Shown: positions 4,894-45,461 of the stretch, in pieces
Position numbering within the stretch: position 1 is the first letter of the stretch
Layout of the letters: every line of letters begins with the position of its first letter
Source: an uncultured Spirochaetales bacterium
GTDB lineage: Bacteria > Spirochaetota > Spirochaetia > Sphaerochaetales > Sphaerochaetaceae
Direction: 5' to 3'
Length of the DNA stretch: 64,000 nt
Assembly (NCBI GenBank): GCA_949295125.1
Contig: CASFJV010000052.1
Location: forward strand, 5,686-69,685
Notes under the pieces: generated by a model
The model's database searches: none
Seen by the model: only the letters and a program-made list of their open reading frames with translations
Told to the model about the DNA's origin: nothing
Made by a program: the position numbers and the translations under genes

Positions 4894-5424
4894 TCAGGCT
4901 GTAACGCACAGCCTTGTTATTTCTGTTCCGCTAAGAAAGCATTCAATATACTTCCTGCGGCACTTTGTCCATTTCTGCAGTATTTCAAGGGCTCCTTCCT
5001 TGTCAGAATACACTTTCCATACCCCTGAAAAGATTGCATTTTCTCCCTTGTTCTCGATGAATCCCTGCACATCGCCTGGAGGATATCCGAGAAAAAATCC
5101 AACCTCATGGGGACAGTCAGTGATGAGGAATCTCCTGCTCAGCTGATCAAGCATCTCTTCAAGGGTTCCATGGTAGCCGAATGCGGAAAGGATATTCCTT
5201 GAAAGCGGATTCTGAAGCGCCTCTTCAAGTTTCTTCCTCCTGTAGATTAAAATGAGGCTGACACCTTTTGCCGTAGTGATTGGAAGGAATGACAGCCCTC
5301 TTTGCCTCAGTTTTTCCATGCATGATGTGCATGCCGGGAGATTTTTCAGTGAGATGAGGGATGAGGGTTTCATATTCGCAAGAGTGGGGGATGCATGCAT
5401 TACAAGCATTTGCTCAAAACTCAT
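4894..5424 (-). CDS. DUF3793-like protein
   Basis: 176-aa ORF, 9 nt upstream of the flavodoxin gene. It resembles the DUF3793 family, which often accompanies flavodoxin in anaerobes. This is recognised from memory only. Confidence 0.5.
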   Translation of the reverse strand: MSFEQMLVMHASPTLANMKPSSLISLKNLPACTSCMEKLRQRGLSFLPITTAKGVSLILIYRRKKLEEALQNPLSRNILSAFGYHGTLEEMLDQLSRRFLITDCPHEVGFFLGYPPGDVQGFIENKGENAIFSGVWKVYSDKEGALEILQKWTKCRRKYIECFLSGTEITRLCVTA

Positions 5425-5438
5425 TTTCTTCTCCGTTT

Positions 5439-5454
5439 GTTAGAATAGCCTAAC
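5439..5454. promoter_or_regulatory. GTTAGAATAGCCTAAC, operator-like dyad in front of the DUF3793-flavodoxin operon
   Basis: GTTAG-N6-CTAAC arms, 15 nt upstream (minus-strand sense) of the start at 5424 and just beyond its GGAG SD. Confidence 0.45.
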
Positions 5455-5522
5455 TTAATTTCCGAAATACTTGCCCCTCAATTCATGAAATCCAGGGGGA
5501 TAGAAGAATGATAGCATATTTT

Positions 5523-5538
5523 GTTAGATTATTCTAAC
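5523..5538. promoter_or_regulatory. GTTAGATTATTCTAAC, second operator-like dyad
   Basis: 15 of 16 positions are identical to the palindrome at 855-870. It lies about 100 bp upstream of the DUF3793 start. Confidence 0.45.
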
Positions 5539-5666
5539 TATTTTTTGCATGTTTTAGACATTTTTAATATTTTCATATAAAATAATGAATTAATGCTAAC
5601 TGTAAAGCGGCGGGGGAGTGCAGGGAGATGATGGGAAATGGCAAAATGCCTTTCATGAAGGAGGGA

Positions 5667-6137
5667 TTAGACAAGTTCTATCATTCCGCGTTCCTTTTTC
5701 AGCAGTCCCTTTTTCTCAAGGCTTTCAAGGCATCTTGATACAACTTCCCTCCTTGTGCCATTGTCAAGGGCAATCTCTTCATGGGTTGTAATGAGAGGCC
5801 CTCCATCTCCTATCTCCCTCAAGTATGAGAGTATCCTCTCTTCCATCGTAAAGAACGAGATGGCCTGGAGCTTGTTGATCATCAGCTCAAGGCGCTTTGC
5901 AAGTATCCTGTCTATGTCACGACAGAGTTCAGGATAATGCCTTATGAGAGCATTGGCCGCATCGTTTGGTATATGGATAAGTGTGGTTTCCATTGCGCTC
6001 CTGAACGAGACGTTGAGCCGCACATTTGAAAGGATAACAGGACTTGTGAGGTCAATGCAGTCCCCTCTGGGAATTGAATATACAAAGAGCTGCTTTCCTC
6101 CCTTGAAGGCATATGCCTTGATCTTTCCTTCCTTCAC
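5667..6137 (-). CDS. Crp/Fnr-family transcriptional regulator (the annotated part starts at the first GTG; the homologous frame continues upstream to about 6341)
   Basis: C-terminal HTH (TTHEEIALDNGTRREVVSRCLESLEKKGLL) and a cNMP-binding-like beta-roll (SLFLVKEGKIKAY). The frame stays open for 68 codons upstream with no ATG, GTG or TTG. Confidence 0.75.
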   Translation of the reverse strand: MKEGKIKAYAFKGGKQLFVYSIPRGDCIDLTSPVILSNVRLNVSFRSAMETTLIHIPNDAANALIRHYPELCRDIDRILAKRLELMINKLQAISFFTMEERILSYLREIGDGGPLITTHEEIALDNGTRREVVSRCLESLEKKGLLKKERGMIELV

Positions 6138-35931: not shown

Positions 35932-36584
35932 ATTCTAATCTCAAAACCGATGCGTGCCTTTATGTCCTTGACTATTATCGGAGCCTCATCAAGATAATCC
36001 CCGTAGATAGCGTATATGTCGAATGTCACAGCATTCCCGTTTATATCCAGGTGGCTCCTGAATCCTGTTATCAGGAGAGCCTGGAATGCTGTTTCAAAGA
36101 ATGAGTAGGAGGAGGAATATACATATACTGATATGTCTTCTGAGATGTCTGCTCCAAGCTCAAGAAGGAAATTTGGCGTGATGCTGAAATATACATCATC
36201 AGAATAGATTGAATAGTCAAGGCCGCCGATGATGCCGATACGGTAATTGAAGTGGAACCATGATGCGCTTATATCCTGCCCGAAATTTATTGCAGCATGA
36301 GCCATGCCTCCTTTGCTTTCAAAGCTGTGATAGAAGGATGAGAAAAGATCAAGGCTCATGGAGTGGGAAAAGCGGAAATCATATTCCCCTGAAAGCCTTA
36401 TATCATAAGGGACCGTAGAGGCAAGGCCAACCTTATAGCTGTCATCATGGAAGTAGGCGCTCAGGGAGAAAGACGGGCCGTAGAATGATGAGAGTCCATA
36501 CCCGCCAGATCCTCCTATATAGGCTGCACTGAGGCTGGAGGCAATTGAAAGTGAGATTAAGATGGCGGCTATTTTCCTTTTCAC
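35928..36584 (-). CDS. Small outer-membrane beta-barrel protein, unknown function
   Basis: Signal peptide ...SLSA/AY. It is rich in Tyr/Gly/Ser with alternating hydrophobic pattern and ends ...RIGFEIRI. It shares a 4-nt overlap with each neighbour. Confidence 0.55.
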   Translation of the reverse strand: MKRKIAAILISLSIASSLSAAYIGGSGGYGLSSFYGPSFSLSAYFHDDSYKVGLASTVPYDIRLSGEYDFRFSHSMSLDLFSSFYHSFESKGGMAHAAINFGQDISASWFHFNYRIGIIGGLDYSIYSDDVYFSITPNFLLELGADISEDISVYVYSSSYSFFETAFQALLITGFRSHLDINGNAVTFDIYAIYGDYLDEAPIIVKDIKARIGFEIRI

Positions 36585-37858
36585 AGCAGGCTGCTCCTTA
36601 TCCTATCTGTATCGATGTCCCTGTATTTCTCATTTCCTGAGTGGTCTATCCAGCTCAGGATGTGGTCAAGGCGGTTGCGCATGCTTGGATGTGGATCATT
36701 AAAGCCTCCGGAAGGAACATCTATAAAGCCTGCCATAAAGCGCATGATACCCTTTGCTTCTCCGATTTTGACTGCGAACTTATCTGCCGCATACTCGCTT
36801 TTCTTTCCTCCAATGAGGTAGCAGACATAGTGTATGCTGTTCATGATCTTCTGTATGGCTGTCAGGAGGACCATGAACACTATCCATATGAGGTAGGTGA
36901 AGACATTCACCTTCTCTCCCTCCTTAGGCCCGATTGCTGCTATGAAATAGCCTGGGATCATGATGAAAGAGAATATGAGATTGAAATTTGCAATTGCTAT
37001 TGTGTTTGCTGTCACATCAAGATGTGCAATATGTCCTAGCTCATGCGCTATGACGCCCCTGATCAGCTCTTCATCAGAGCCTTCCAGGGCACCCTTGTTC
37101 AATGCAATTTTGTTATGTGCGAACGCATATGCATTGAAAGAGTCGCTGTAGTCGATATAGAACCTGACCCTGTGGGGGATTCCCCATGATTTCCTTTTCC
37201 CTTCCTTCACCACTTCCTCTGCAATCCTGAGTGCATCTGAGTCCAGGATATAATCCATCTTCCTGGAGTATTTGAGCCATACAGTAAGCCTTGAAAACAG
37301 CCATAGCGATATAAAGTAGGCGAATGCAAACTGGAGGTTAAAGTATTCTATAAAAGCCAGTGCTGATATAAGCGATGCCCCTGCGTCTGGAAAAATAAGT
37401 GAAAGGAGCCCGAGCGCGGAAGAAAGCGGGATAAGGAAAAACGCATTCAGCTCAAAGTATGACGTAATGAAATAAAAGACAGCAAAGCCTATTATTGTGG
37501 TAATGACCATGTAAGGCCGTGCTATGAGCTTCCAGTAGCATCTGAATATAAGCTTGAATAATGCATAGATAATGAAGAGCAGGGCAATTAGGCCTGGAGC
37601 ATAAAGCCTTATTAAGGAGCCTGCCTCTGTGTATAGAAGGAAGCCATGGACTTTTGATGCAATATATGAAATAGGCATTCCGATTGCCATTGTGATATGG
37701 CCAATGGCATTCAGCAGCCAGCTGTAGCCTAATGCATCGAGTATAAGGGCTATTATGAGCAGGGCGGCAAATATGAAGAACAGCACAAGAATGAAAGAAA
37801 AGATACGTGAAAGTGCTTTGCTGAGCCTGTTTCCACCCGCTTTATATGAAATTGCCAT
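36581..37858 (-). CDS. M48-family (HtpX-like) zinc metalloprotease with an extended N-terminal multi-TM domain
   Basis: HELGH zinc motif (VIAHELGHIAHLD) with a downstream EYAAD. About 6 TM helices precede the protease domain and 2 lie within it. Confidence 0.8.
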   Translation of the reverse strand: MAISYKAGGNRLSKALSRIFSFILVLFFIFAALLIIALILDALGYSWLLNAIGHITMAIGMPISYIASKVHGFLLYTEAGSLIRLYAPGLIALLFIIYALFKLIFRCYWKLIARPYMVITTIIGFAVFYFITSYFELNAFFLIPLSSALGLLSLIFPDAGASLISALAFIEYFNLQFAFAYFISLWLFSRLTVWLKYSRKMDYILDSDALRIAEEVVKEGKRKSWGIPHRVRFYIDYSDSFNAYAFAHNKIALNKGALEGSDEELIRGVIAHELGHIAHLDVTANTIAIANFNLIFSFIMIPGYFIAAIGPKEGEKVNVFTYLIWIVFMVLLTAIQKIMNSIHYVCYLIGGKKSEYAADKFAVKIGEAKGIMRFMAGFIDVPSGGFNDPHPSMRNRLDHILSWIDHSGNEKYRDIDTDRIRSSLL

Positions 37859-37863
37859 AAATA

Positions 37864-37887
37864 AATCTCTCCCAGACAGGAGAGATT
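37864..37887 (-). terminator. Perfect 9-bp hairpin after the SSS gene whose 3' arm contains the SD of the M48 gene
   Basis: Minus strand reads AATCTCTCC-TGTCTG-GGAGAGATT-TATTT-ATG. It lies 50 nt after the SSS stop and 5 nt before the M48 ATG. Confidence 0.5.
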
Positions 37888-37937
37888 ATAATTGATAATG
37901 CCATTATGAGAAAGCCCCTTGAAAAGAGGCCTTACAG

Positions 37938-39374
37938 TTACTTCTCTTCAGTATATGCACTTGGTGCCGGAGCAATTCCCATCTTCCATTCAATCAGGTT
38001 TACGATGAAGAATGTGACCGTTCCAACTGCACAGCCGAATACTACAGGAAGTATGCCGAGGTAGAAGTCTCCACCTGAAAGGATCTGCCAGACGATTACT
38101 CCGATTGTTCCTGTTATGATGGATATCTGGCCTGAGTGCTTTGTGGCTCTTGGGACCACCATGCCAAGCCCGTATGCTGCAAAAGGACCTGCACACCTTA
38201 TGGCAAAGGCAAAAGTATTCATAGTAACGATGTCTATTCCAAAGAGGCTTATAAGCATTGCCACCACGCAGAATATGACATTGCATGTCCTTGTATAGAA
38301 TATGATCTGTTTGTCAGAAAGGTTTTTTCCCTTTTCTGTATATTTGAGATAGATGTCATTCATGAACATCGTGGACATGCAGAGCAGGTTTGAATCAGCG
38401 CTGGACATTGTTGCACTTATGATTGCTGCACTGATTACTCCCGTTATGATTGCCGGTGCAAAATGGTTTGTAACCATCATCATCGAGCTGTTTGCATCCA
38501 TGCCAGGAATCTCTTCTGCCATAGCAAGTGCTGTCAGGCCGAGAAGGGTTGGGAATATTGCCATTGCCGCCATCAGCACTGCAGAAAGAAGGGATGCATA
38601 CTTTGCTGTCTTTTCATCCTTTGCACTCTCAAAGCGGCTTATCATCTCAGGGCCAGAGAGGAATGTGCAGAAGTAGTTGAAGATATATCCGATTATCACA
38701 ACCCAGCCGATCTTGTCTATTGAAAGCTGCTCTCCTGGAAGCTTTGCTGCAACGCTCTGCCATCCTCCTGCTCCGTGTATTACTATAGGAGTTGCAACTG
38801 CAAGTCCGACAAGGATTATTATGAACTGCACTAGGTCAGATACCTGGTCTGCAATCATGCCGCCAAGTGTCGTGTATATAATAATTACCAGTCCTGCCAC
38901 TACAAGGCATACATTCAGTGGAATTCCAGTCAGTGAATAGATGACGGTTCCTGATGCTGCCACCTGGCTGCTTGTCAGGCAGAAGAGTGCAAGAATGTTC
39001 AATACTGCAGAGAACACGCTGCTTGTCTTGCCAAAGCGCCTGTTTATGACTTCCGGAATCGTCAGTGCCATCGTCTTCCTGATCTTAGGAGCAAACCAGG
39101 CAAGAGGAATCATGGCTATGGATGCTGCCAGGACATACCAGACCGCGCTCATTCCCCAGGTGCCAAAAGCCTTGCTTGCAAGCCCTGTTGTGCTTCCTCC
39201 TCCAATGTTGTTTGCTGAAAGGCTGAAAGCCACCATGAAAAGCCCCATTCTCCTTCCTGCAACCATATAGTCTTCGCTGTTCTTTATCTTCAGCTTTCCG
39301 ACCAGGTATCCGACCAGCAGCATTCCGATCAGGTATGCTCCAGTGATTATTAATGCGCCTATGTTAATAGTCAT
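37938..39374 (-). CDS. Sodium:solute symporter (SSS) family transporter
   Basis: About 13 TM helices. The N-terminus MTINIGALIITGAYLIGMLLVGY...EDYMVAGRRMG is typical of SSS proteins. The ATG at 39374 follows GAGGGAGGAA. Confidence 0.85.
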   Translation of the reverse strand: MTINIGALIITGAYLIGMLLVGYLVGKLKIKNSEDYMVAGRRMGLFMVAFSLSANNIGGGSTTGLASKAFGTWGMSAVWYVLAASIAMIPLAWFAPKIRKTMALTIPEVINRRFGKTSSVFSAVLNILALFCLTSSQVAASGTVIYSLTGIPLNVCLVVAGLVIIIYTTLGGMIADQVSDLVQFIIILVGLAVATPIVIHGAGGWQSVAAKLPGEQLSIDKIGWVVIIGYIFNYFCTFLSGPEMISRFESAKDEKTAKYASLLSAVLMAAMAIFPTLLGLTALAMAEEIPGMDANSSMMMVTNHFAPAIITGVISAAIISATMSSADSNLLCMSTMFMNDIYLKYTEKGKNLSDKQIIFYTRTCNVIFCVVAMLISLFGIDIVTMNTFAFAIRCAGPFAAYGLGMVVPRATKHSGQISIITGTIGVIVWQILSGGDFYLGILPVVFGCAVGTVTFFIVNLIEWKMGIAPAPSAYTEEK

Positions 39375-39430: not shown

Positions 39431-39472
39431 AATAAAAAAGGACAGGCAGCCGAAATAGACCACTCTGTCCTT
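39431..39472 (-). terminator. Rho-independent terminator downstream of the orphan trkH tail
   Basis: Minus strand reads AAGGACAG-N19-CTGTCCTT followed by TTTTTATTT, about 60 nt after the TAA of the trkH fragment. Confidence 0.6.
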
Positions 39473-39532: not shown

Positions 39533-39646
39533 TTATTTTGTCCAGAATTTCTTTGTAAGAAGTGAGAATGCAGTAAAGAGCTCAAGCCTTCCATGCAGCA
39601 TCAGAGAAGAAAGAAGCCACTGAGAGGGACTGGAAAATCCGGTTTT
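39533..39646 (-). pseudogene. trkH: Orphan 3' fragment of a trkH gene (last 37 codons plus stop)
   Basis: Translates KTGFSSPSQWLLSSLMLHGRLELFTAFSLLTKKFWTK*. The intact TrkH at 41179 ends DFAAPYQWILSVLMLLGRLELFTAFSLLTKKFWTK*. An in-frame TGA lies immediately upstream. Confidence 0.8.
39537..39604. repeat. Left copy of a 68-bp direct repeat (trkH 3' end)
   Basis: By-eye alignment gives 66 of 68 identical positions to 41183-41250. Similarity drops to roughly 60 percent over the next ~25 nt. Confidence 0.85.
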
Positions 39647-41182
39647 TCAGCAGGGGATCCCATTTTTCCTTGTAGAGTTGTAAAATCAAGATCATCTGCT
39701 CTAAAATCTCTCAATTTTCTGCTTTTGATAGCAATTATTTTCAAAAATAAAAAGTTTATGCTATTGATAGCAAAAAAAATTGCATTTTTCTGAGTTTGTG
39801 CTATGTTTAGATAAGAGGAGAAATGAGCCATGATCAGGACACACGAACTTAAGAGACGTGATTTGTATTTGAGAAAGCTGATCGGCTTTCAGGATACGGA
39901 GCCTGTAAAAGTCATCACCGGAATCCGCCGCTGCGGTAAATCAAGCCTGCTTAAGCTGATGATCCGGCATCTGAAGGAAAACGGTATCCGGGATGATCAG
40001 ATCATAGATATTAATTTTGAATCCTACGGTTTTAGGAGCATGACTAAGGACGATCTATACCATTATGTCAGAGATCGGGTTGTTTCAGGAAAGCGGATGT
40101 ATCTTTTTTTTGATGAGCTGCAGCGGATAGATGCCTGGGAAGATGCGGTCAATTCCTTCCGGGTGGATCTGGACTGTGACATCTACATTACAGGATCCAA
40201 CGCCTATCTGCTGTCCTCTGAGTACTCAACTTATCTTTCTGGCAGGTACGTGGAAATAAAAATGCTGCCGCTCTCTTTTAGGGAGTTCCTGGATTTCTAT
40301 GGCTTTGAGGTTAGGAAAACCAGCAGTGCCCTTGGCAGAGCACGACGCCAGATATTCGACAAAAACGGAGAGCGGTACGAGGAGATGGAGGTGTTTGACG
40401 CCTACATGCGCTTTGGCGGAATGCCGGGCATTGCAGATATCGGTCTGGATCAGGAAAAAGCTTTATCAGTTCTTGATGGCATTTACTCCACTGTTGTTGT
40501 AAGGGATATCCTGGAGAGGGAAAAACGGCGTGGTGAGCGGCAGATTACCGATGCTGCGCTCCTGCGTAAGATTGTGCTGTTTCTTGCGGACAATATTGGC
40601 AGCACCGTTTCTGCATCCTCCATTGGCAAAGCTCTGATGAGTGCGGGGCTGCTGGAAAATCAAAAAAGCAGGGGAATCCCCAGTGCCCATACGGTGCAGG
40701 CATATATCAGCGCGCTTATGGAAAGCTATTTCTTCTATGAGATCAAGCGTTTTGACATCAAGGGCAGAGAGTACCTCTCTACACTTGGTAAATACTATAT
40801 CGTTGACATCGGGCTTAGGAACTATCTGCTTGGATTCAGAAACAGGGACAGAGGATATGCAATTGAGAATGTGGTCTACTTTGAGTTGCTGCGCCGCGGA
40901 TATGATGTTGCGATCGGAAAGATCGACAGTCAGGAGGTAGACTTCATCGCAACAACTGCTGACGGAAAGCTTTATATCCAGGTGACTGAATCCATGCAGA
41001 GTGAGGACGTCCGCAGGCGGGAACTATCCCCACTGGAGAAGATCCGGGACAACTATGAAAAGATTGTGCTCTCTCTTGATCCTGGGCTTGATGGGTCCTA
41101 TGAAGGCATCAAGTCAAAAAATCTCATCAGCTGGCTGCTTGAGAACTGAAGAGCGCTTCAAGCGGTTTGGTGAGCCAGCTAC
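39605..41182. mobile_element. Putative ~1.6-kb insertion cassette carrying only the AAA_14/DUF4143 ATPase gene
   Basis: Bounded by the duplicated trkH tail. The AT-rich left part contains TTGATAGCAA twice (39725-39734 and 39764-39773). No integrase or transposase is present. Confidence 0.45.
39830..41149 (+). CDS. AAA_14-type ATPase with a DUF4143 / PD-(D/E)xK-like C-terminal domain
   Basis: Walker A GIRRCGKSS, Walker B LFFDELQ. The C-terminus (ENVVYFELLRRGYDVAIGKIDSQEVDFIATTADGKLYIQVTES) is typical of the restriction-endonuclease-like fold in this widespread family. Confidence 0.8.
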   Translation: MIRTHELKRRDLYLRKLIGFQDTEPVKVITGIRRCGKSSLLKLMIRHLKENGIRDDQIIDINFESYGFRSMTKDDLYHYVRDRVVSGKRMYLFFDELQRIDAWEDAVNSFRVDLDCDIYITGSNAYLLSSEYSTYLSGRYVEIKMLPLSFREFLDFYGFEVRKTSSALGRARRQIFDKNGERYEEMEVFDAYMRFGGMPGIADIGLDQEKALSVLDGIYSTVVVRDILEREKRRGERQITDAALLRKIVLFLADNIGSTVSASSIGKALMSAGLLENQKSRGIPSAHTVQAYISALMESYFFYEIKRFDIKGREYLSTLGKYYIVDIGLRNYLLGFRNRDRGYAIENVVYFELLRRGYDVAIGKIDSQEVDFIATTADGKLYIQVTESMQSEDVRRRELSPLEKIRDNYEKIVLSLDPGLDGSYEGIKSKNLISWLLEN

Positions 41183-42630
41183 TTTGTCCAGAATTTCTTT
41201 GTAAGGAGTGAGAATGCAGTAAAGAGCTCAAGCCTTCCAAGCAGCATCAGGACAGAAAGTATCCACTGGTAAGGTGCTGCAAAATCATGGAATGATGTCC
41301 TGACGCCCATACCTCCAAGGGAAAATCCGATGTTTCCTATTGCCTGGAGGACACTTGTAAGGCATGTGATGAAATCCATATCAGAGAGGCTTATGAGGAC
41401 TGTTCCTATAAGTGCTGTCATTAAGTAGAAGCCTACAAACCCGGCTATGGAAAGGCATGTGTTCTCATCATATGTGTCATCACCGATCCTGACGTTCGTA
41501 ACAGCATTCGGATGCGAGCGCCTTATCATGGCATTCGTTCCAAGCTTGAACATGACGCGCACCCTTATGACCTTAAGGCCGCCTCCTGTGGAACCTGCAC
41601 ATCCCCCTATGAACATCATCAGGAACATCAGCATCTGGGCAAACATCGGCCAGTAATTGAAGTCAGTGCTGTAAAAACCTGTTGTAGTGATTACCGAGAC
41701 TATCTGGAAGAATGCATGCCTGATGCTGTCTGAAAAGCTGAAAAAGCCTTTGAAGAAAAGGTTGAGCCCTGCAAGGAGGCCGGAGATTAATACGATTGCG
41801 AAATACAGCCTGAGCTCCCCATCCCTTGCAACTCTCCTGAATTTCCTCTTTAAAAGCTTGTAATAGAGTGCGAAGTTGCCTCCGGCTATGAACATGAAAA
41901 TGATGCAGATCCACTCAACGTATGCGCTTTGATAGCTCATGACTGACTGGTTTGATGCCGTAAATCCCGCAGCTCCCATAGTACCGAACATGAGGGTAAG
42001 CGAGTCATAGAATGTAAGCCCTCCGATATATAGCAGGATCACTTCAACTGCACTTATGCCGAGATAGATCAGCCAGAGGGATTTTGCCGTTCCCCTGATG
42101 GACGGTGTCAGCTTGTCTTTTGTAGGCCCCACGGATTCTGCCCCGAAGAGTGCTGTGCCTTTCACTCCGAACTTTGGGAATACGGCCACAAACAGGACAA
42201 CAATGCCCATTCCTCCAAGCCAGTTGGTAAGGCATCGCCAGAATATTACAGAGCGCGGATGGTCTGTCACTGTTGGAATGGCAGAGGCTCCAGTAGTTGT
42301 GAAGCCGCTCATGATTTCAAAGAATGATTCAGAAAAACCGACAGTAGTTCCTGTGAAGTAGAGCGGGAGGCATCCGAATAAGGTTGCGACGATCCATGTC
42401 AGTGTCACAAAGATGTAGCTGTCCTTCGTTGTGATATCCCGGATCTTGCTTTTATGCGTTATGAGGATAGTCAGTCCTGCAAAAAGTGCAATCAGCAGTT
42501 CTGTCTCTATGAATGCCTTTGATGCGCTGCTCTCATCAAAATAGAATGACATAGCAAGAGGGATCAACATTATCCCACCGATGAATATCATAAGGTATGC
42601 CAGCAGTTTGAAATCCGATTTCAAGTTCAT
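41179..42630 (-). CDS. trkH: Trk-type potassium uptake protein TrkH
   Basis: 483 aa, multi-TM, with repeated selectivity-filter-like segments (GFTTTGAS and ITTTGF). It lies downstream of trkA. Confidence 0.9.
   Translation of the reverse strand: MNLKSDFKLLAYLMIFIGGIMLIPLAMSFYFDESSASKAFIETELLIALFAGLTILITHKSKIRDITTKDSYIFVTLTWIVATLFGCLPLYFTGTTVGFSESFFEIMSGFTTTGASAIPTVTDHPRSVIFWRCLTNWLGGMGIVVLFVAVFPKFGVKGTALFGAESVGPTKDKLTPSIRGTAKSLWLIYLGISAVEVILLYIGGLTFYDSLTLMFGTMGAAGFTASNQSVMSYQSAYVEWICIIFMFIAGGNFALYYKLLKRKFRRVARDGELRLYFAIVLISGLLAGLNLFFKGFFSFSDSIRHAFFQIVSVITTTGFYSTDFNYWPMFAQMLMFLMMFIGGCAGSTGGGLKVIRVRVMFKLGTNAMIRRSHPNAVTNVRIGDDTYDENTCLSIAGFVGFYLMTALIGTVLISLSDMDFITCLTSVLQAIGNIGFSLGGMGVRTSFHDFAAPYQWILSVLMLLGRLELFTAFSLLTKKFWTK
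41183..41250. repeat. Right copy of the 68-bp direct repeat (functional trkH 3' end)
   Basis: See 39537-39604. This copy completes the intact trkH reading frame. Confidence 0.85.
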
Positions 42631-42642
42631 ATTCTCTCCCCT

Positions 42643-44097
42643 CTAATTAGCCCAGAATCTCCTCGTGAAAAGTGAATATACAGTAAAAAGCTCAAGCCTT
42701 CCCGCGAGCATCAGGAACGAGAAGGCCCAGAGATAGAACGATGAGAACTGGTCAAAACATTCCGTTGTTCCAAGCGTGCCTATTCCAACTCCATTATTTC
42801 CAAGTGTCAATAATACTCCTGTAAAGCATGTGAGGAAATCCCTTCCTGAGAGGCTTATGACAAGGGTTCCGATGAAGATCGTAACCAGGTAGAGCCCTAT
42901 GAAGCCTGCAATGGAAGAGCATGTCTCCTCGCTTATTATGCTGTCTCCGACCTTCACATTTGTCACAGCATTCGGATGTATGCGCTTGAGTGTGGCATTT
43001 GTTCCCATCTGGTAAAGCACCTTTACCCTTATGACCTTAATGCCGCCTCCCGCACTTCCGGCACAGCCCCCGATGAAAAGAAGCACGAAAAGCACTATCT
43101 GTGAGAACATGGGCCATGATGAATAGTTTGCTGAGGCAAAGCCGGTTGTCGTTATGAAAGATATCACATGGAAAAAGCCAAGGCGTATTGAGTCCATTAT
43201 CCCTGCGACACTGTTTGTGTAAAGGTTGATTGAGACCAGGATGGAAAATACAAGGATAAGCTTTATGTAGAGCCTGAATTCACCATCGTGTGCGACTCTT
43301 TTGAACTTTCCCTGAAAAAGCTTGAAGAAAAGCGCGAAATTAGTTCCTGACAAAAACATGAAGATGGTGCATACCCATTCAACATAATGCGAACTGTAGG
43401 CTGCAATTGAGCCTTCCCTTGGGGCAAAACCGGCAGCTGCTATGGTGCCGAATGCAACAGCTGAGGCATCAAATATGCTGAGCCCTCCCAAAAGGAGCAG
43501 TATCGTCTGTGCCACAGTGAGTGCAAGGTATATGAGCCAGAGAGCCATTGCCGTACTCTGGATCTGTGGTGTGAGCTTGTCTTTTGTAGGGCCGACCGTC
43601 TCTGCTCCCACAAGGGCTGTTCCCCGCACTCCGACAGCCGGAAGAAGGGCAACAAAGAGAACTATGATTCCCATTCCTCCTATCCAGTTTGTCATATTGC
43701 GCCAGAACAGTATTGACTCAGGCTTCTCGTTTATATTCGGTATTGCAGTCGCTCCTGTTGTAGTGAAACCGCTCATGGTCTCAAAGAAGGACTCGGCAAA
43801 ACTCATGGTGGCTTCCGTCATGTAGTACGGTATTGATCCGAAGAATGTTACAGTAAGCCATGTAAGGGTTACGAAGACATAGCTGTCCTTTATTGAAAGC
43901 TCCTTTGCCGCATCTTCCCCGCGCAGGTAGAGGAGTATCAGGATGGCAGAGAATAGCAGAAGGCACTCTGTTGTCAAAAATGCCATATAAGCTTCCTCTT
44001 CCCCGTTAAAATGTGCAATGAGAAGGGGAATGACCATAAATAATGCCATTACAAGCATTACATATGACAGGAGCTTTATGACAGTTTTGGGGTTCAT
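42643..44097 (-). CDS. trkH: Trk-type potassium uptake protein TrkH (second paralog)
   Basis: 484 aa, colinear with the downstream TrkH (for example SGFTTTGATAIP and ITTTGFASANY). The two are divergent at the nucleotide level. Confidence 0.9.
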   Translation of the reverse strand: MNPKTVIKLLSYVMLVMALFMVIPLLIAHFNGEEEAYMAFLTTECLLLFSAILILLYLRGEDAAKELSIKDSYVFVTLTWLTVTFFGSIPYYMTEATMSFAESFFETMSGFTTTGATAIPNINEKPESILFWRNMTNWIGGMGIIVLFVALLPAVGVRGTALVGAETVGPTKDKLTPQIQSTAMALWLIYLALTVAQTILLLLGGLSIFDASAVAFGTIAAAGFAPREGSIAAYSSHYVEWVCTIFMFLSGTNFALFFKLFQGKFKRVAHDGEFRLYIKLILVFSILVSINLYTNSVAGIMDSIRLGFFHVISFITTTGFASANYSSWPMFSQIVLFVLLFIGGCAGSAGGGIKVIRVKVLYQMGTNATLKRIHPNAVTNVKVGDSIISEETCSSIAGFIGLYLVTIFIGTLVISLSGRDFLTCFTGVLLTLGNNGVGIGTLGTTECFDQFSSFYLWAFSFLMLAGRLELFTVYSLFTRRFWAN

Positions 44098-45461
44098 ATG
44101 AGGCTTGCTCCGAAAATATCCTGTATGAAACCCTGGTCCTTATGTGCCGCTGCCACTATTACAGTGTCATTAAGGGTGAATGCATAGTTTCCCCCTGGAA
44201 TGAAATTCTCTCCATCTGCTCTCTTTATGCCGGCAATGATTGCCTTGCCACGGAGATTTACATCCTTAAGTGCCTTATTTAGGTACCTGAAGTCCTCTGC
44301 AATTAAGAATTCATATACCTCAAGCGATCCGTCAAAGAGGGTATGGAGCGTTTCTATCGTCCTTCCCCTTAGATGCCTGACCAGGGTGTCTACTGTGGCA
44401 TTTGTCGTTGAAATAGCCGCATCGATATCAAGATGGGAGGCAAGGGAGATGTAATTGTTGTTCGTCTTTATTGATGATATTACCCTCTTTGCTCCAAGAC
44501 GTTTTGCATATAGTGATGATATGATATTAAGCTCATCATTTTCCGTGACGCTTATGACAAGATCCGTATTGTAAAGCTTCTCATCCTCCCAGGTCGCCTC
44601 ATCTGTCACGCTTGCGTTGATTATCAGGATGTCAGGGAAAATATCCAGGAATTCGCGTGCTATCTTCTCATCCTTTTCTATGAGTGTGACTTTCTTCCTC
44701 TCCTGTGGAGTGAAGGCGGATAGCAGGTAACGCGTTATCCTTGTTGCTCCAATCATGAGGATCTTCCTTATCGTGGAATCATCTACAGGCCCTGAGAGCT
44801 CAGTGAATATGTCCTTGCTCTCCTCTTCATCCACGATGATTGCTATCTCATCACCGGATTTTATTATTGTGTCACCGTAAGGGGTGAAGACCTTGTTCTT
44901 CCTCCTTATTCCTGCAATCACGTACTGTCCGGGAATCTTTTTCCTTGCCTCTATGAGAGTCTTGTCCTTGAACGGGCTGTCCTTGCCTATGGTTGTGGCA
45001 AAGAGCATGAAGTGCGCATCCGGAAATGATATCACATCCTTATATAGTCCGCTCCTGATAATCCCGAGAATCCTGTTTGCTGCCTCCTGGTCCGGGTTCA
45101 CTATGTATGAAATTCCAAGAATCGGGTGATGTGATTCTCCGCCCAGGTAGCTTATGCTCCTGATTGCTGCAATTGTGGTTTTCACCTGCGGAAATTCTGA
45201 TGCGACTATGCCGCAGCTTACAAGGTTTGTTTCATCATTGTCAGTTACTGCGATTACTGCATCTGCATTGCTTACCTGTGCCTCTATAAGCTTATCTACA
45301 TTTGTGGCACTTCCGCAAACGGCCATGCAGTCCAGTTTTGAGACTGCCTGCTGGCATCTTTCAGAGCTGGCATCCAGGAAGATTACGTTCTTGTTTTCCT
45401 CTATCAGGTGCTTGCCAAGACGTAAGCCCCTCCTTCCTGCGCCTATTATCAAAACGTTCAT
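44094..45461 (-). CDS. trkA: Trk system NAD-binding subunit TrkA
   Basis: Two RCK/TrkA-N Rossmann units (MNVLIIGAGRRG and ILMIGATRI), each followed by a TrkA-C segment. 455 aa. Confidence 0.9.
   Translation of the reverse strand: MNVLIIGAGRRGLRLGKHLIEENKNVIFLDASSERCQQAVSKLDCMAVCGSATNVDKLIEAQVSNADAVIAVTDNDETNLVSCGIVASEFPQVKTTIAAIRSISYLGGESHHPILGISYIVNPDQEAANRILGIIRSGLYKDVISFPDAHFMLFATTIGKDSPFKDKTLIEARKKIPGQYVIAGIRRKNKVFTPYGDTIIKSGDEIAIIVDEEESKDIFTELSGPVDDSTIRKILMIGATRITRYLLSAFTPQERKKVTLIEKDEKIAREFLDIFPDILIINASVTDEATWEDEKLYNTDLVISVTENDELNIISSLYAKRLGAKRVISSIKTNNNYISLASHLDIDAAISTTNATVDTLVRHLRGRTIETLHTLFDGSLEVYEFLIAEDFRYLNKALKDVNLRGKAIIAGIKRADGENFIPGGNYAFTLNDTVIVAAAHKDQGFIQDIFGASLI

What the first reader, a model, noticed from the sequence alone, without database searches (positions are those of the whole stretch)
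39533..41250. Single-gene ATPase cassette inserted in the 3' end of trkH, with the gene tail duplicated on both sides
What the sequence shows:
- The last 68 nt of the intact trkH (41183-41250) recur at 39537-39604 with two mismatches.
- The left copy still encodes a TrkH C-terminus (...QWLLSSLMLHGRLELFTAFSLLTKKFWTK*).
- That copy is cut off by an in-frame stop upstream and is followed by a good terminator (39431-39472).
- Similarity persists but decays for about 40 more nt on the gene-internal side (GFSSPSQW versus DFAAPYQW).

Interpretation:
- This is the pattern expected if an element carrying a surrogate trkH tail recombined into the gene. The native tail and terminator would then be displaced about 1.6 kb away.
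- The only cargo is an AAA_14/DUF4143 ATPase. No integrase, transposase or inverted terminal repeats are visible.
- The mechanism of mobility is therefore unexplained. Candidates are a remnant of a larger element, in-trans mobilisation, or a nuclease-driven homing-like event.
Basis: partly seen in the sequence, partly recalled or inferred. Interest (0 to 1): 0.65.

Follow-up and report, generated by a model that had tools for sequence, protein, structure and literature searches.

The report
Foreign defence-candidate gene splitting trkH tail
A single horizontally acquired gene (a candidate anti-phage ATPase-nuclease of the PDC-S01 family) sits in the last 110 bases of a spirochaete potassium-transporter gene, which stays intact only because its tail is present twice; this resembles how some prophages insert into genes, but here no recombinase is present.

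Summary
The last 72 nt of trkH1 (41179-41250, stop codon included) recur at 39533-39604 with 4 mismatches. A further ~35 nt of decayed similarity follows, then a strong terminator and the SSS gene.

The 1.65 kb between the copies holds one intact gene, an AAA_14/DUF4143 ATPase. It matches PADLOC candidate defence family PDC-S01 (E 2e-150).

Five related species (TrkH1 77-81% aa) have trkH1 followed directly by SSS or the next gene. None of them has the ATPase, and none of 78 related trkH loci has an orphan trkH tail.

The closest ATPase homologues (84-85% aa) are in Firmicutes. They lie between terL and portal in prophages, in a mobilisable element, in an island, and at the 3' end of ppk. All share the same unit: about 100 nt of promoter plus the ORF. 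None of those copies has flanking repeats, and in phages the gene co-diverges with its flanks.

The two tails share a perfect 33-nt core. Outside it they differ only at three synonymous third positions. Inside it the orphan copy is degenerate. This is the e14/icd-icdC pattern of a surrogate gene end.

Best reading: Campbell-type recombination of cassette DNA carrying a trkH tail. The enzyme is unknown. No recombinase is in the window and no same-species empty site was found. Interest is moderate.

The parts
41179..42630 (-). trkH1, intact 483-aa TrkH potassium-uptake subunit. It is the last gene of the trkA-trkH2-trkH1 operon.
   Evidence: Pfam TrkH 1e-60. Orthologues at 77-81% aa occupy the same operon position in L001-L004 and L009.
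41179..41250 (-). Right (R) tail copy: the last 23 codons plus the stop of the functional trkH1. Inferred to be the surrogate tail that arrived with the cassette.
   Evidence: 68/72 identical to 39533-39604. It directly abuts the cassette's 3' flank.
41150..41178 (.). 29-nt spacer between the convergent stop codons of the ATPase and trkH1. It forms a weak hairpin with the ATPase 3' end (41129-41179). It may be a trimmed remnant of the cassette's own terminator, because it shares the 8-mer TGAAGAGC with the phage and IME copies.
   Evidence: Fold -22 kcal/mol, z about -1 to -2. Alignments A3 and A6. The terminator-remnant idea is weak inference.
39830..41149 (+). 439-aa AAA_14 ATPase plus DUF4143 (PD-(D/E)XK-clan) protein. 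It is a member of PADLOC candidate defence family PDC-S01, is intact and is under purifying selection.
   Evidence: Pfam. PADLOC PDLC04787, E 2.4e-150. dN/dS about 0.07 against Firmicute copies. Walker A GIRRCGKSS and Walker B LFFDE are invariant.
39731..39829 (+). Cassette-borne promoter/operator region conserved with copies in four unrelated Firmicute contexts. Features: -35 TTGCAT 39780-39785, -10 TATGTT 39802-39807, palindrome TGCTATTGATAGCA 39759-39772, RBS AGAGGAG.
   Evidence: Nucleotide homology to L087, L096 and the viral loci starts at 39731-39744. Alignments A2 and A5. Promoter hexamers were read from the sequence.
39644..39730 (.). 87-nt AT-rich junction segment of unknown origin between the orphan tail and the conserved cassette. 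It contains a degenerate second copy of the operator-like motif (39713-39734).
   Evidence: No homologue in any fetched locus. Repeat D6. 31% G+C over 39644-39829.
39605..39643 (-). Degenerate inner part of the orphan trkH tail: about 63% identity to trkH1, a net 1-nt indel, and an in-frame stop just upstream. Inferred to be the old, never-translated arm of the incoming DNA.
   Evidence: 29/46 identity to R. It is equally far (51-58%) from all orthologues and from trkH2, whereas the R inner part is 75-82% identical to orthologues. Collinear local alignment.
39533..39604 (-). Left (L) orphan tail copy: the last 23 codons plus the stop of a trkH, with no gene body. Inferred to be the displaced native tail.
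   Evidence: It continues directly into the terminator and SSS, as trkH1 does in L002 and L009.
39561..39593 (.). 33-nt stretch perfectly identical in both copies (also 41207-41239). It encodes GRLELFTAFS, the most conserved part of TrkH tails. It is the candidate crossover region.
   Evidence: Mismatch map. Conservation across orthologues and the paralogue.
39431..39472 (-). Rho-independent terminator, inferred to be the native terminator of the trk operon. It is now separated from trkH1 by the cassette.
   Evidence: Hairpin -19.6 kcal/mol, z -4.2, followed by a U run. Partial hit in the consensus scan.
37938..39374 (-). Sodium:solute symporter (SSS) gene. In L002 and L009 it is the direct downstream neighbour of trkH1.
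   Evidence: Pfam SSF 1e-39. 91-92% aa and 80% nt identity to L002 and L009, where it lies 92-100 nt after trkH1.
42643..45461 (-). trkH2 (42643-44097) and trkA (44094-45461), the upstream genes of the operon.
   Evidence: Pfam. Synteny with relatives.

Best explanation
What it is (shown):
- A chromosomal trkA-trkH2-trkH1 operon of a chicken-gut spirochaete near Candidatus Ornithospirochaeta has a 1.65-kb foreign insert in the last 110 nt of trkH1.
- The insert carries one self-contained unit: its own promoter/operator, a 439-aa AAA_14 ATPase fused to a DUF4143 PD-(D/E)XK-type domain, and a weak terminator. The protein belongs to PDC-S01, an abundant but unvalidated single-gene anti-phage defence candidate.
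- trkH1 stays intact because its last 72 nt are present on both sides of the insert.

How it got there (inferred):
- The cassette had resided in a related spirochaete long enough to acquire host-like G+C.
- It was on a DNA molecule that also carried a trkH 3' end.
- A single reciprocal (Campbell-type) crossover took place within the conserved 33-72-nt GRLELFTAFS... stretch.
- That crossover joined the resident trkH1 body to the incoming, synonymous 'surrogate' tail (R, 41179-41250).
- It left the resident tail (L, 39533-39604) attached to its own terminator and SSS on the far side.
- The degenerate 39605-39643 piece is the incoming molecule's old, never-translated trkH arm.

The catalyst is not identified. 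Host homologous recombination on about 70 nt of identity is the most economical candidate. A site-specific recombinase acting in trans would make this a CIME-like element.

What it does now (inferred):
- The ATPase is expressed from its own promoter as an accessory gene, probably for defence.
- The direct repeats allow precise loss by recombination.
- trk transcription now runs antisense into the ATPase, because the operon has lost its terminator.
For: Foreign insertion:
- Five related species have trkH1 followed within about 90-190 nt by SSS (L002, L009) or by the next gene (L001, L003, L004). None has the ATPase.
- The nearest ATPase homologues, at 84-85% aa, are all in Firmicute prophages, mobile elements or chromosomes.
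- The conserved unit has the same limits in five unrelated contexts.

Surrogate-tail geometry:
- The repeat ends exactly at the stop codon.
- There is a perfect 33-nt core. The three differences outside it (39533, 39536, 39560) are all third-position synonymous, P about 0.007-0.015 under random mutation. This suggests both tails evolved as coding sequence before they were brought together.
- The orphan copy's inner part is as far from trkH1 as a paralogue, with an indel, while its core is 94% identical. This fits an old element arm next to a recombining core.
- Both tails share the lineage-specific TAFSLL state, which points to a closely related donor.

Donor and age:
- ATPase G+C is 47.7% and GC3 56%, matching the host. 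dS to Firmicute copies is above 1. The immediate donor was therefore not a Firmicute.

Precedent:
- Prophage e14 is flanked by icd, whose end it supplies, and by the icdC C-terminal pseudogene. The two differ mostly by synonymous changes (PMC13626634).
Against: - No recombinase, transposase or inverted repeats in the 64-kb window.
- No circular form or same-species empty site was seen. All three samples with this trkH1 carry the cassette.
- No other copy of the cassette examined has flanking repeats.
- None of 78 related trkH loci has an orphan tail or an island at this site. There is thus no sign that the trkH tail is a recurrent attachment site.
- The synonymous-only argument rests on three sites, and the partition was chosen after seeing the data. 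For the whole 72-nt block, P(>=3 of 4 synonymous) is only about 0.04-0.06.
- About 70 nt is near the lower limit for efficient RecA-dependent crossover (general knowledge).
Confidence: 0.5

Rival explanations
1. In-situ illegitimate insertion with a long target duplication. The cassette was joined into the chromosome just after the trkH1 stop codon by a break-repair or replication-based event that duplicated the preceding ~110 nt. The orphan copy then decayed neutrally. Its last 72 nt were recently re-homogenised with trkH1 by gene conversion.
For: - The ATPase looks long-resident: host-like G+C and dS above 1 to all known relatives.
- The inner 35-40 nt of the orphan copy look like an old pseudogene, with 63% identity and an indel.
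- No recombinase is present.
- Other insertions of this cassette look illegitimate. One overlaps the last 13 codons of ppk in L087. Another abuts a 5'-truncated serine recombinase gene in L213.
Against: - It needs two phases plus a conversion tract that happens to stop near the conserved motif.
- It does not explain why the duplication ends exactly at the stop codon.
- It does not explain why the three outer differences are all synonymous.
- Long target duplications of about 100 nt are rare in bacteria (general knowledge).
Confidence: 0.25
2. Remnant of a larger integrative element. A prophage or island with its own integrase used the trkH 3' end as attB and supplied the surrogate tail. Deletions later removed everything except the ATPase. 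What remains is a CIME-like stump bounded by attL and attR.
For: - The closest homologues of the gene are typical cargo of prophages (terL-portal hotspot) and of an IME with a relaxase.
- The attL/attR-like geometry equals that of e14/icd.
- CIMEs are defined as elements that kept attL and attR but lost their integration and transfer genes (PMC6323972).
Against: - The 87-nt and 29-nt flanks show no phage or island homology.
- Two deletions hugging a 1.42-kb cassette are needed.
- None of 78 related trkH loci shows any element or orphan tail at this site.
- In the phages the gene lies mid-genome between terL and portal, far from a typical int-att module.
Confidence: 0.12
3. Nuclease-driven homing. 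The ATPase's own PD-(D/E)XK-like domain cuts the conserved trkH tail motif in cassette-free genomes. Repair then copies in the cassette together with an immune, synonymously altered tail.
For: - DUF4143 is classified in the PD-(D/E)XK superfamily (PMC3424549).
- The gene shows presence/absence polymorphism between two conserved phage genes, as free-standing homing endonuclease genes do.
- The R tail differs from L only synonymously.
Against: - In phages the gene co-diverges with terL and portal over 76-99.98% identity, so there is no sign of independent spread.
- The same terL-portal site holds many other inserts.
- The 33-nt core is intact in both copies, so a cutter of that motif would re-cleave its own locus.
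- The other chromosomal copies have different neighbours and no duplications.
- The conserved C-terminal motif reads EVDF...IQVTE rather than a canonical (D/E)xK, so nuclease activity is unverified.
Confidence: 0.04
4. The left repeat is the last trace of a decayed third trkH paralogue and has nothing to do with the ATPase gene.
For: - trkH is already tandemly duplicated here (trkH2-trkH1).
- The inner part of the orphan copy is as divergent as a paralogue.
Against: - The core is 94% identical to trkH1 at the nucleotide level, including lineage-specific states, against 71% for trkH2.
- No relative has a third copy or any remnant.
- The remnant and the intact tail bracket the only foreign DNA at the locus.
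Confidence: 0.02

Closest known systems
e14 (and phage 21) integration into the 3' end of icd in E. coli, leaving the icdC pseudogene
   Same: - The element sits inside the 3' end of a housekeeping gene.
- The functional gene ends in element-supplied sequence.
- The displaced native C-terminal fragment lies at the far end of the element as a pseudogene.
- The two tails differ mainly by synonymous changes, and recombination between them restores a single gene (PMC13626634).
   Different: - e14 is about 15 kb and encodes its own integrase/excisionase, and it excises on SOS induction.
- The insert here is 1.65 kb with one cargo gene and no recombinase.
- Excision has not been observed here.
CIMEs (cis-mobilizable elements), e.g. 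those at the 3' end of fda next to ICESt1/ICESt3 in Streptococcus thermophilus
   Same: - Small non-autonomous elements bounded by direct att repeats derived from a gene's 3' end.
- They lack integration and transfer genes (definition in PMC6323972; the fda example is from my own knowledge).
   Different: - A CIME is recognised by a cognate ICE or integrase that uses the same att site.
- No such element or integrase was found in the window or in 78 related trkH loci.
PDC-S01, PADLOC 'phage defence candidate' single-gene system (AAA_14 ATPase + DUF4143; COG1373)
   Same: - Full-length HMM match, E 2.4e-150.
- Same two-domain architecture.
- Carried on phages, plasmids and IMEs like other members.
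- Described as an ATPase fused to a PD-(D/E)XK domain, the fourth most common 'defence' in prokaryotes, and unvalidated (PMC12988326).
   Different: - Here it is not embedded in a defence island. It lies between transporter genes.
- Its insertion has duplicated a host gene tail, which was not seen in the other copies examined.
Phage morons / accessory-gene hotspots between conserved phage genes
   Same: - The closest homologues are a self-contained promoter-ORF-terminator unit at a variable terL-portal hotspot.
- In related phages that hotspot is empty (about 20 nt) or holds other inserts.
   Different: The window copy is in a bacterial chromosome with no phage genes nearby.

Membership tests
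PDC-S01 (PADLOC candidate defence system) | Significant full-length match to a PDC-S01 profile HMM | tested here: met
   PDLC04787, E 2.4e-150, residues 6-438 against profile positions 9-408 of 412. Six further PDC-S01 models also hit.
PDC-S01 (PADLOC candidate defence system) | AAA_14 ATPase N-terminal domain plus DUF4143 (PD-(D/E)XK clan) C-terminal domain in one protein | tested here: met
   Pfam AAA_14 at 24-154 (1.3e-33) and DUF4143 at 238-383 (2.8e-15). Walker A and B are conserved.
PDC-S01 (PADLOC candidate defence system) | Protects against phage infection | not testable with these tools
   [quoted passage not shown] One strain (L084) carries a frameshifting 70-nt deletion, so the gene is dispensable.
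PDC-S01 (PADLOC candidate defence system) | Catalytically competent PD-(D/E)XK nuclease motif | tested here: inconclusive
   The invariant residues are E346, E352, D371 (EVDF) and Q384-V-T386-E387, not an obvious (D/E)xK. The AF2 model was too poor to place them, with pLDDT 45. No PDB homologue by sequence.
Integrative element with a surrogate gene end (e14/icd type) | Direct repeats made of the target gene's 3' end bracket the element, and the target gene remains intact | tested here: met
   68/72 identity between the two tail copies. trkH1 is a full-length 483-aa ORF with an orthologue-like tail.
Integrative element with a surrogate gene end (e14/icd type) | Empty sites in related genomes | tested here: met
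   L001-L004 and L009 lack the insert. This holds only at between-species distance. No same-species empty site was found.
Integrative element with a surrogate gene end (e14/icd type) | Element-encoded integrase/excisionase next to an att site | tested here: not met
   The ATPase is the only real ORF between the repeats. No recombinase among 46 Pfam-scanned ORFs of the window.
Integrative element with a surrogate gene end (e14/icd type) | Excision to a circle and restoration of a single tail | not testable with these tools
   Needs PCR or long reads on the organism. A pattern search for the predicted pop-out junction found nothing, but the species is absent from that collection.
CIME (cis-mobilizable element) | Retains attL/attR but lacks integration and transfer genes | tested here: inconclusive
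   Direct repeats are present and there are no mobility genes. That the repeats are att sites of any recombinase is not shown.
CIME (cis-mobilizable element) | A cognate ICE or integrase uses the same attachment site in related genomes | tested here: not met
   No orphan tail or island at trkH ends in 78 related loci.
Free-standing homing endonuclease gene | Spreads independently of its flanks into a cognate site; the carrier allele is immune | tested here: not met
   It co-diverges with terL and portal in phages. The 33-nt core is intact in both copies. The other chromosomal sites are unrelated.
IS element / transposon | Transposase, terminal inverted repeats, short fixed-length target duplication | tested here: not met
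   No transposase domain. No terminal inverted repeats. The duplication is 72-110 nt and is absent at other copies.
Integron gene cassette | attC recombination site on the cassette and an IntI/attI platform | tested here: not met
   No integrase in the window. The cassette carries its own promoter. No attC-like imperfect palindrome was seen at either end. No dedicated attC model was run.

The most novel reading that the evidence does not exclude
PDC-S01 genes may not be, or not only be, defence genes. On this reading they are minimal single-gene integrative cassettes. A promoter-ORF unit would use its own ATPase-nuclease, or host recombination on a captured gene end, to enter the 3' ends of conserved genes while repairing them with a surrogate tail. 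That would help explain why this family is among the most abundant 'defence' genes in prokaryotes, and why it turns up at gene ends: trkH here, ppk in Limivivens, and a truncated recombinase gene in an IME.
Probability: 0.06. Interest if true: 0.85.

Novelty: new variant of a known kind. Interest (0 to 1): 0.4.

Why it matters
- If the surrogate-tail reading is right, a single accessory or defence-candidate gene can be carried into an essential-type gene without an element-encoded recombinase. About 70 nt of captured gene end would serve both as the recombination site and as the repair patch.
- That would be a minimal route for moving defence genes between related bacteria. It also gives a ready-made way to lose them, by recombination between the repeats.
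- The locus is a concrete place to test whether PDC-S01, very abundant yet unvalidated, is a defence gene, a selfish passenger, or both.
- If instead the structure is a one-off illegitimate insertion, it is an ordinary scar of horizontal gene transfer.

Tried and rejected
1. Flanking direct repeats around other copies of the cassette (L087, L096, L098, L103, L104): none.
2. Orphan trkH tails in L001-L009 and in all 78 related loci: only paralogue-to-paralogue matches.
3. Extending the orphan remnant beyond about 39643: MAFFT hinted at similarity up to about 39700. A local alignment that excluded the core supported only the collinear 33-nt piece, with 7 of 300 shuffles reaching its score when position is unconstrained. 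Longer remnant rejected.
4. Recent HGT of the SSS gene together with the orphan tail: SSS is 80% nt identical to L002 and L009, against 72-77% for the trk genes. It is simply more conserved. Rejected.
5. Independent mobility of the ATPase among phages: phages carrying the identical protein are 95-99.98% identical across terL-ATPase-portal, and more distant ones co-diverge. Rejected.
6. Same-species empty site: exact-protein look-ups for TrkH1, SSS and the ATPase found only cassette-bearing contigs. Two metagenome pattern scans found nothing, and the second showed the species is not in that collection.
7. Structure: AF2 on a shallow alignment gave pLDDT 45, so no fold search was run. Sequence and profile searches of the PDB found no homologue.
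8. Rfam and tRNA scans of the locus: nothing.
9. Polarity of the three synonymous differences using orthologues: uninformative.
10. The 66-aa ORF at 39593-39793, called by the source annotation. Its ATG is created by the 39594 mismatch. It has no convincing RBS and lies in AT-rich promoter DNA, so I treated it as spurious.

Full report
**Observation**

The repeat is real and is far beyond chance.
- The repeat finder reports 39534-39622 versus 41180-41268 at 91% over 89 nt. It is the strongest non-paralogue repeat in the whole window.
- Base by base, 39537-39604 versus 41183-41250 differ at two positions, 39560 and 39594.
- With the last Lys codon and the stop codon included, 39533-39604 versus 41179-41250 is 68/72.
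- The repeat stops exactly at the stop codon (TAA in the left copy, TAG in trkH1). The sequences beyond it are unrelated.
- Inward of 39604, identity falls abruptly to about 63% with a net 1-nt indel, and fades by about 39643. An in-frame TGA lies just upstream.
- This inner piece is collinear with the core. Taken alone and with position unconstrained, 7 of 300 shuffles reach its score.
- The hairpin at 39431-39472 on the minus strand is a good terminator: -19.6 kcal/mol, z = -4.2, followed by a U run.

**Layout**

Reading along the minus strand, the order is:
1. trkA (44094-45461), trkH2 (42643-44097) and trkH1 (41179-42630).
2. A 29-nt spacer.
3. The convergent ATPase gene (39830-41149, plus strand).
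4. Its 99-nt conserved promoter region (39731-39829).
5. 87 nt of AT-rich DNA of unknown origin (39644-39730).
6. The orphan trkH tail (39533-39643).
7. The terminator.
8. The SSS symporter (37938-39374), an M48 peptidase gene, an unannotated 218-aa ORF (no Pfam hit) and a metallophosphoesterase gene.

None of 46 ORFs across the 64 kb scanned with Pfam is an integrase or transposase. There is no tRNA or Rfam feature at the locus.

**The insert is foreign**

- The organism is a spirochaete near Candidatus Ornithospirochaeta.
- Five related species have TrkH1 at 77-81% aa. In L002 and L009, trkH1 is followed after about 90-100 nt by SSS. In L001, L003 and L004 it is followed after about 170-190 nt by the 218-aa ORF.
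- None of the five has the ATPase or an orphan tail.
- A scan of all 78 related trkH loci found only paralogue-to-paralogue tail matches.
- Three independent samples that encode exactly this TrkH1 all carry the ATPase next to it. No same-species empty site is known. The species is absent from the JGI metagenome collection.

**What the cargo is**

- The protein has AAA_14 and DUF4143 domains.
- It matches PADLOC's PDC-S01 model over its full length, E 2.4e-150.
- PDC-S01 is a 'phage defence candidate' found by guilt-by-embedding. It is an ATPase fused to a PD-(D/E)XK domain, is among the most abundant 'defence' genes in prokaryotes, and is still unvalidated (PMC12988326; PMC13356809; PMC3424549).
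- No solved structure is detectable by sequence. My AF2 model was unusable, with pLDDT 45.
- Walker A and B motifs are invariant. The conserved C-terminal residues read EVDF...IQVTE rather than a textbook (D/E)xK, so nuclease competence is open.
- The gene is under purifying selection: dN/dS about 0.07 against Firmicute copies, with dS above 1.
- Its G+C (47.7%) and GC3 match its spirochaete neighbours.

**Where else the cassette occurs**

Thousands of proteins of the same length are 84-85% identical. I examined these contexts:
- Candidatus Limivivens chromosome: between a sugar-binding protein gene and ppk. The last 13 codons of ppk overlap the cassette's 3' end.
- Firmicute prophages: between terL and portal.
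- A mobilisable element: between a relaxase gene and a 5'-truncated serine recombinase gene.
- An island: beside a second AAA_14/DUF4143 gene and a Schlafen-like gene.
- More distant relatives occur on 233 plasmids, annotated only as 'ATP-binding protein'.

In all five contexts the shared nucleotide unit starts about 100-115 nt upstream of the ATG. It includes a palindrome TGCTAT..ATAGCA and a TG-extended -10. It ends at the stop codon or up to 65 nt after it, at a terminator. It is therefore a discrete promoter-ORF unit of the 'moron' type.

It shows no sign of autonomous movement:
- None of the other copies examined has flanking direct repeats.
- In phages the gene co-diverges with terL and portal over 76-99.98% identity.
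- The same terL-portal junction in related phages is either empty (about 20 nt) or holds other inserts of 0.4-2 kb.

**Reading the two tails**

- Both copies share the lineage-specific TAFSLL state that orthologues lack. They are therefore recent relatives of each other, not old paralogues. trkH2 is 71% identical.
- The differences are structured:
  - A perfect 33-nt stretch (39561-39593) covers the GRLELFTAFS motif, the most conserved part of all TrkH tails.
  - Outward of it there are three differences: CTT/CTC, AAA/AAG and TAA/TAG. All are at third positions and synonymous, P about 0.007-0.015 for random mutations. The test is small and post hoc. For the whole 72-nt block, P(>=3 of 4 synonymous) is about 0.05.
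  - Inward of it there is one non-synonymous difference (CAT/CTT, His for a conserved Leu/Val), then a degenerate stretch.
- The orphan copy's inner part is equally far (51-58%) from every orthologue and from trkH2. The same part of trkH1 is 75-82% identical to orthologues.

This is what attL/attR look like when an element supplies a surrogate gene end: an exchange core, two tails that each evolved as coding sequence, and an element arm that was never translated. The textbook case is e14 in icd. There icd ends in prophage-supplied sequence, and the native C-terminal fragment survives as icdC at the far end. The two differ mostly by synonymous changes (PMC13626634).

**Most likely history (inference)**

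1. The cassette had lived in a related spirochaete long enough to be ameliorated.
2. It was on a molecule that also carried a trkH 3' end.
3. One reciprocal crossover in the 33-72-nt core placed it in trkH1. R became the new functional tail. L, with its terminator and SSS, became the displaced native end.

What catalysed the exchange is unknown. Host homologous recombination is the simplest candidate. A recombinase in trans would make this a CIME-like element (definition: PMC6323972), but nothing in the window or in relatives supports that.

The main rival is an in-situ insertion just after the stop codon with a ~110-nt duplication, followed by decay and later gene conversion of the last 72 nt. 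It explains the old-looking inner part and the ameliorated gene. It does not explain the stop-codon boundary or the synonymous-only differences.

Less likely are a decayed larger island or prophage, nuclease-driven homing, and an unrelated third paralogue. Reasons are given under the rivals.

**Consequences at the locus (inference)**

- trkH1 keeps an unchanged protein tail.
- The trk operon has lost its terminator and now converges on the ATPase gene across a weak hairpin. Antisense transcription into the ATPase is therefore likely.
- The direct repeats permit precise loss of the cassette.
- The cargo is dispensable. One strain (L084) carries a 70-nt frameshifting deletion (40986-41055) flanked by a TGA microhomology.

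**Verdict**

- The ATPase is a known family (PDC-S01), and the insertion geometry is a known kind (surrogate gene end).
- What is unusual is that the unit is minimal, recombinase-free and single-gene.
- Interest is moderate (0.4).

Noticed in passing
window 40986-41055; locus L084 (ENA ERZ16268250): A contig from another sample is identical to the window except for a 70-nt deletion inside the ATPase gene. The deletion is bounded by a TGA microhomology. It shifts the frame right after the conserved IQV motif. The cargo gene is therefore being lost in at least one strain, unless this is a scaffold error.
   Followed up: partly
window 36581-39374 versus L001-L004, L009: The DNA downstream of trkH1 is variable among related species. 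SSS is present in L002 and L009 but absent in L001, L003 and L004. The M48 peptidase gene (36581-37858) is present only in the window. trkH2 is present only in the window, L001 and L009. The ATPase is thus one of several gains or losses at this spot.
   Followed up: partly
window 39759-39772 and 39713-39734; same position in L087, L096, L213, L219: A palindrome TGCTAT(N2)ATAGCA lies between the -35 region and upstream DNA of the cassette promoter. It is conserved in all five contexts. The window has a second, degenerate copy 39 nt upstream. It looks like an operator for an unknown, possibly auto-regulatory, DNA-binding protein.
   Followed up: no
L132-L211 (IMG/VR phages related by TerL): The terL-portal junction of this Firmicute phage group is a cargo hotspot. 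About half of the 80 loci have about 20 nt between the two genes. The others carry inserts of about 0.4-2 kb. Across L106-L131, PDC-S01 variants of 66-96% aa identity to the phage query copy (P0066) occupy the same slot, and two of the TerL-related loci, L168 and L178, carry a 51% variant.
   Followed up: partly
L213-L218, about 5320-6113: In a mobilisable element (LPD25, NikA-like, relaxase) the cassette and its terminator are followed at once by a 244-aa ORF. That ORF starts inside the zinc-ribbon domain of a large serine recombinase. The recombinase gene has lost its catalytic N-terminal half at the cassette junction.
   Followed up: partly
L086-L095, 6280-6320: In Candidatus Limivivens merdigallinarum, ppk reads 40 nt into the antisense of the ATPase 3' end. 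The last 13 PPK residues (ISRPAASPQGSGT) are therefore encoded by cassette DNA. This is an insertion at a gene's extreme 3' end without duplication.
   Followed up: partly
window 39593-39793 (+): The single non-synonymous mismatch in the orphan tail (39594, T versus A) creates an ATG on the plus strand. That ATG opens a 66-aa ORF running to 37 nt before the ATPase start. The source annotation calls it a gene. It has no clear RBS and is probably spurious.
   Followed up: no
ATPase residues 346-387 (window about 40865-40990): The residues conserved across variants of 53-100% identity in the DUF4143 domain are E346, E352, EVD371F and IQ384-V-T386-E. There is no lysine in the usual (D/E)xK position. 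The nuclease may be non-canonical or inactive.
   Followed up: partly
L027 13223-14368; L010 18491-19756: Two other Sphaerochaetaceae-type loci carry distant AAA_14/DUF4143 homologues (26-30% aa) within 0.4-4 kb of their trk genes. Given how common the family is, this may be coincidence.
   Followed up: no
P0127, P0128, P0129: Three database TrkH1 relatives have unrelated or divergent N-terminal parts. P0127, for example, starts with a biotin-carboxylase-like segment. All three then join near-identical C-terminal two-thirds. They are probably chimeric metagenome assemblies.
   Followed up: no
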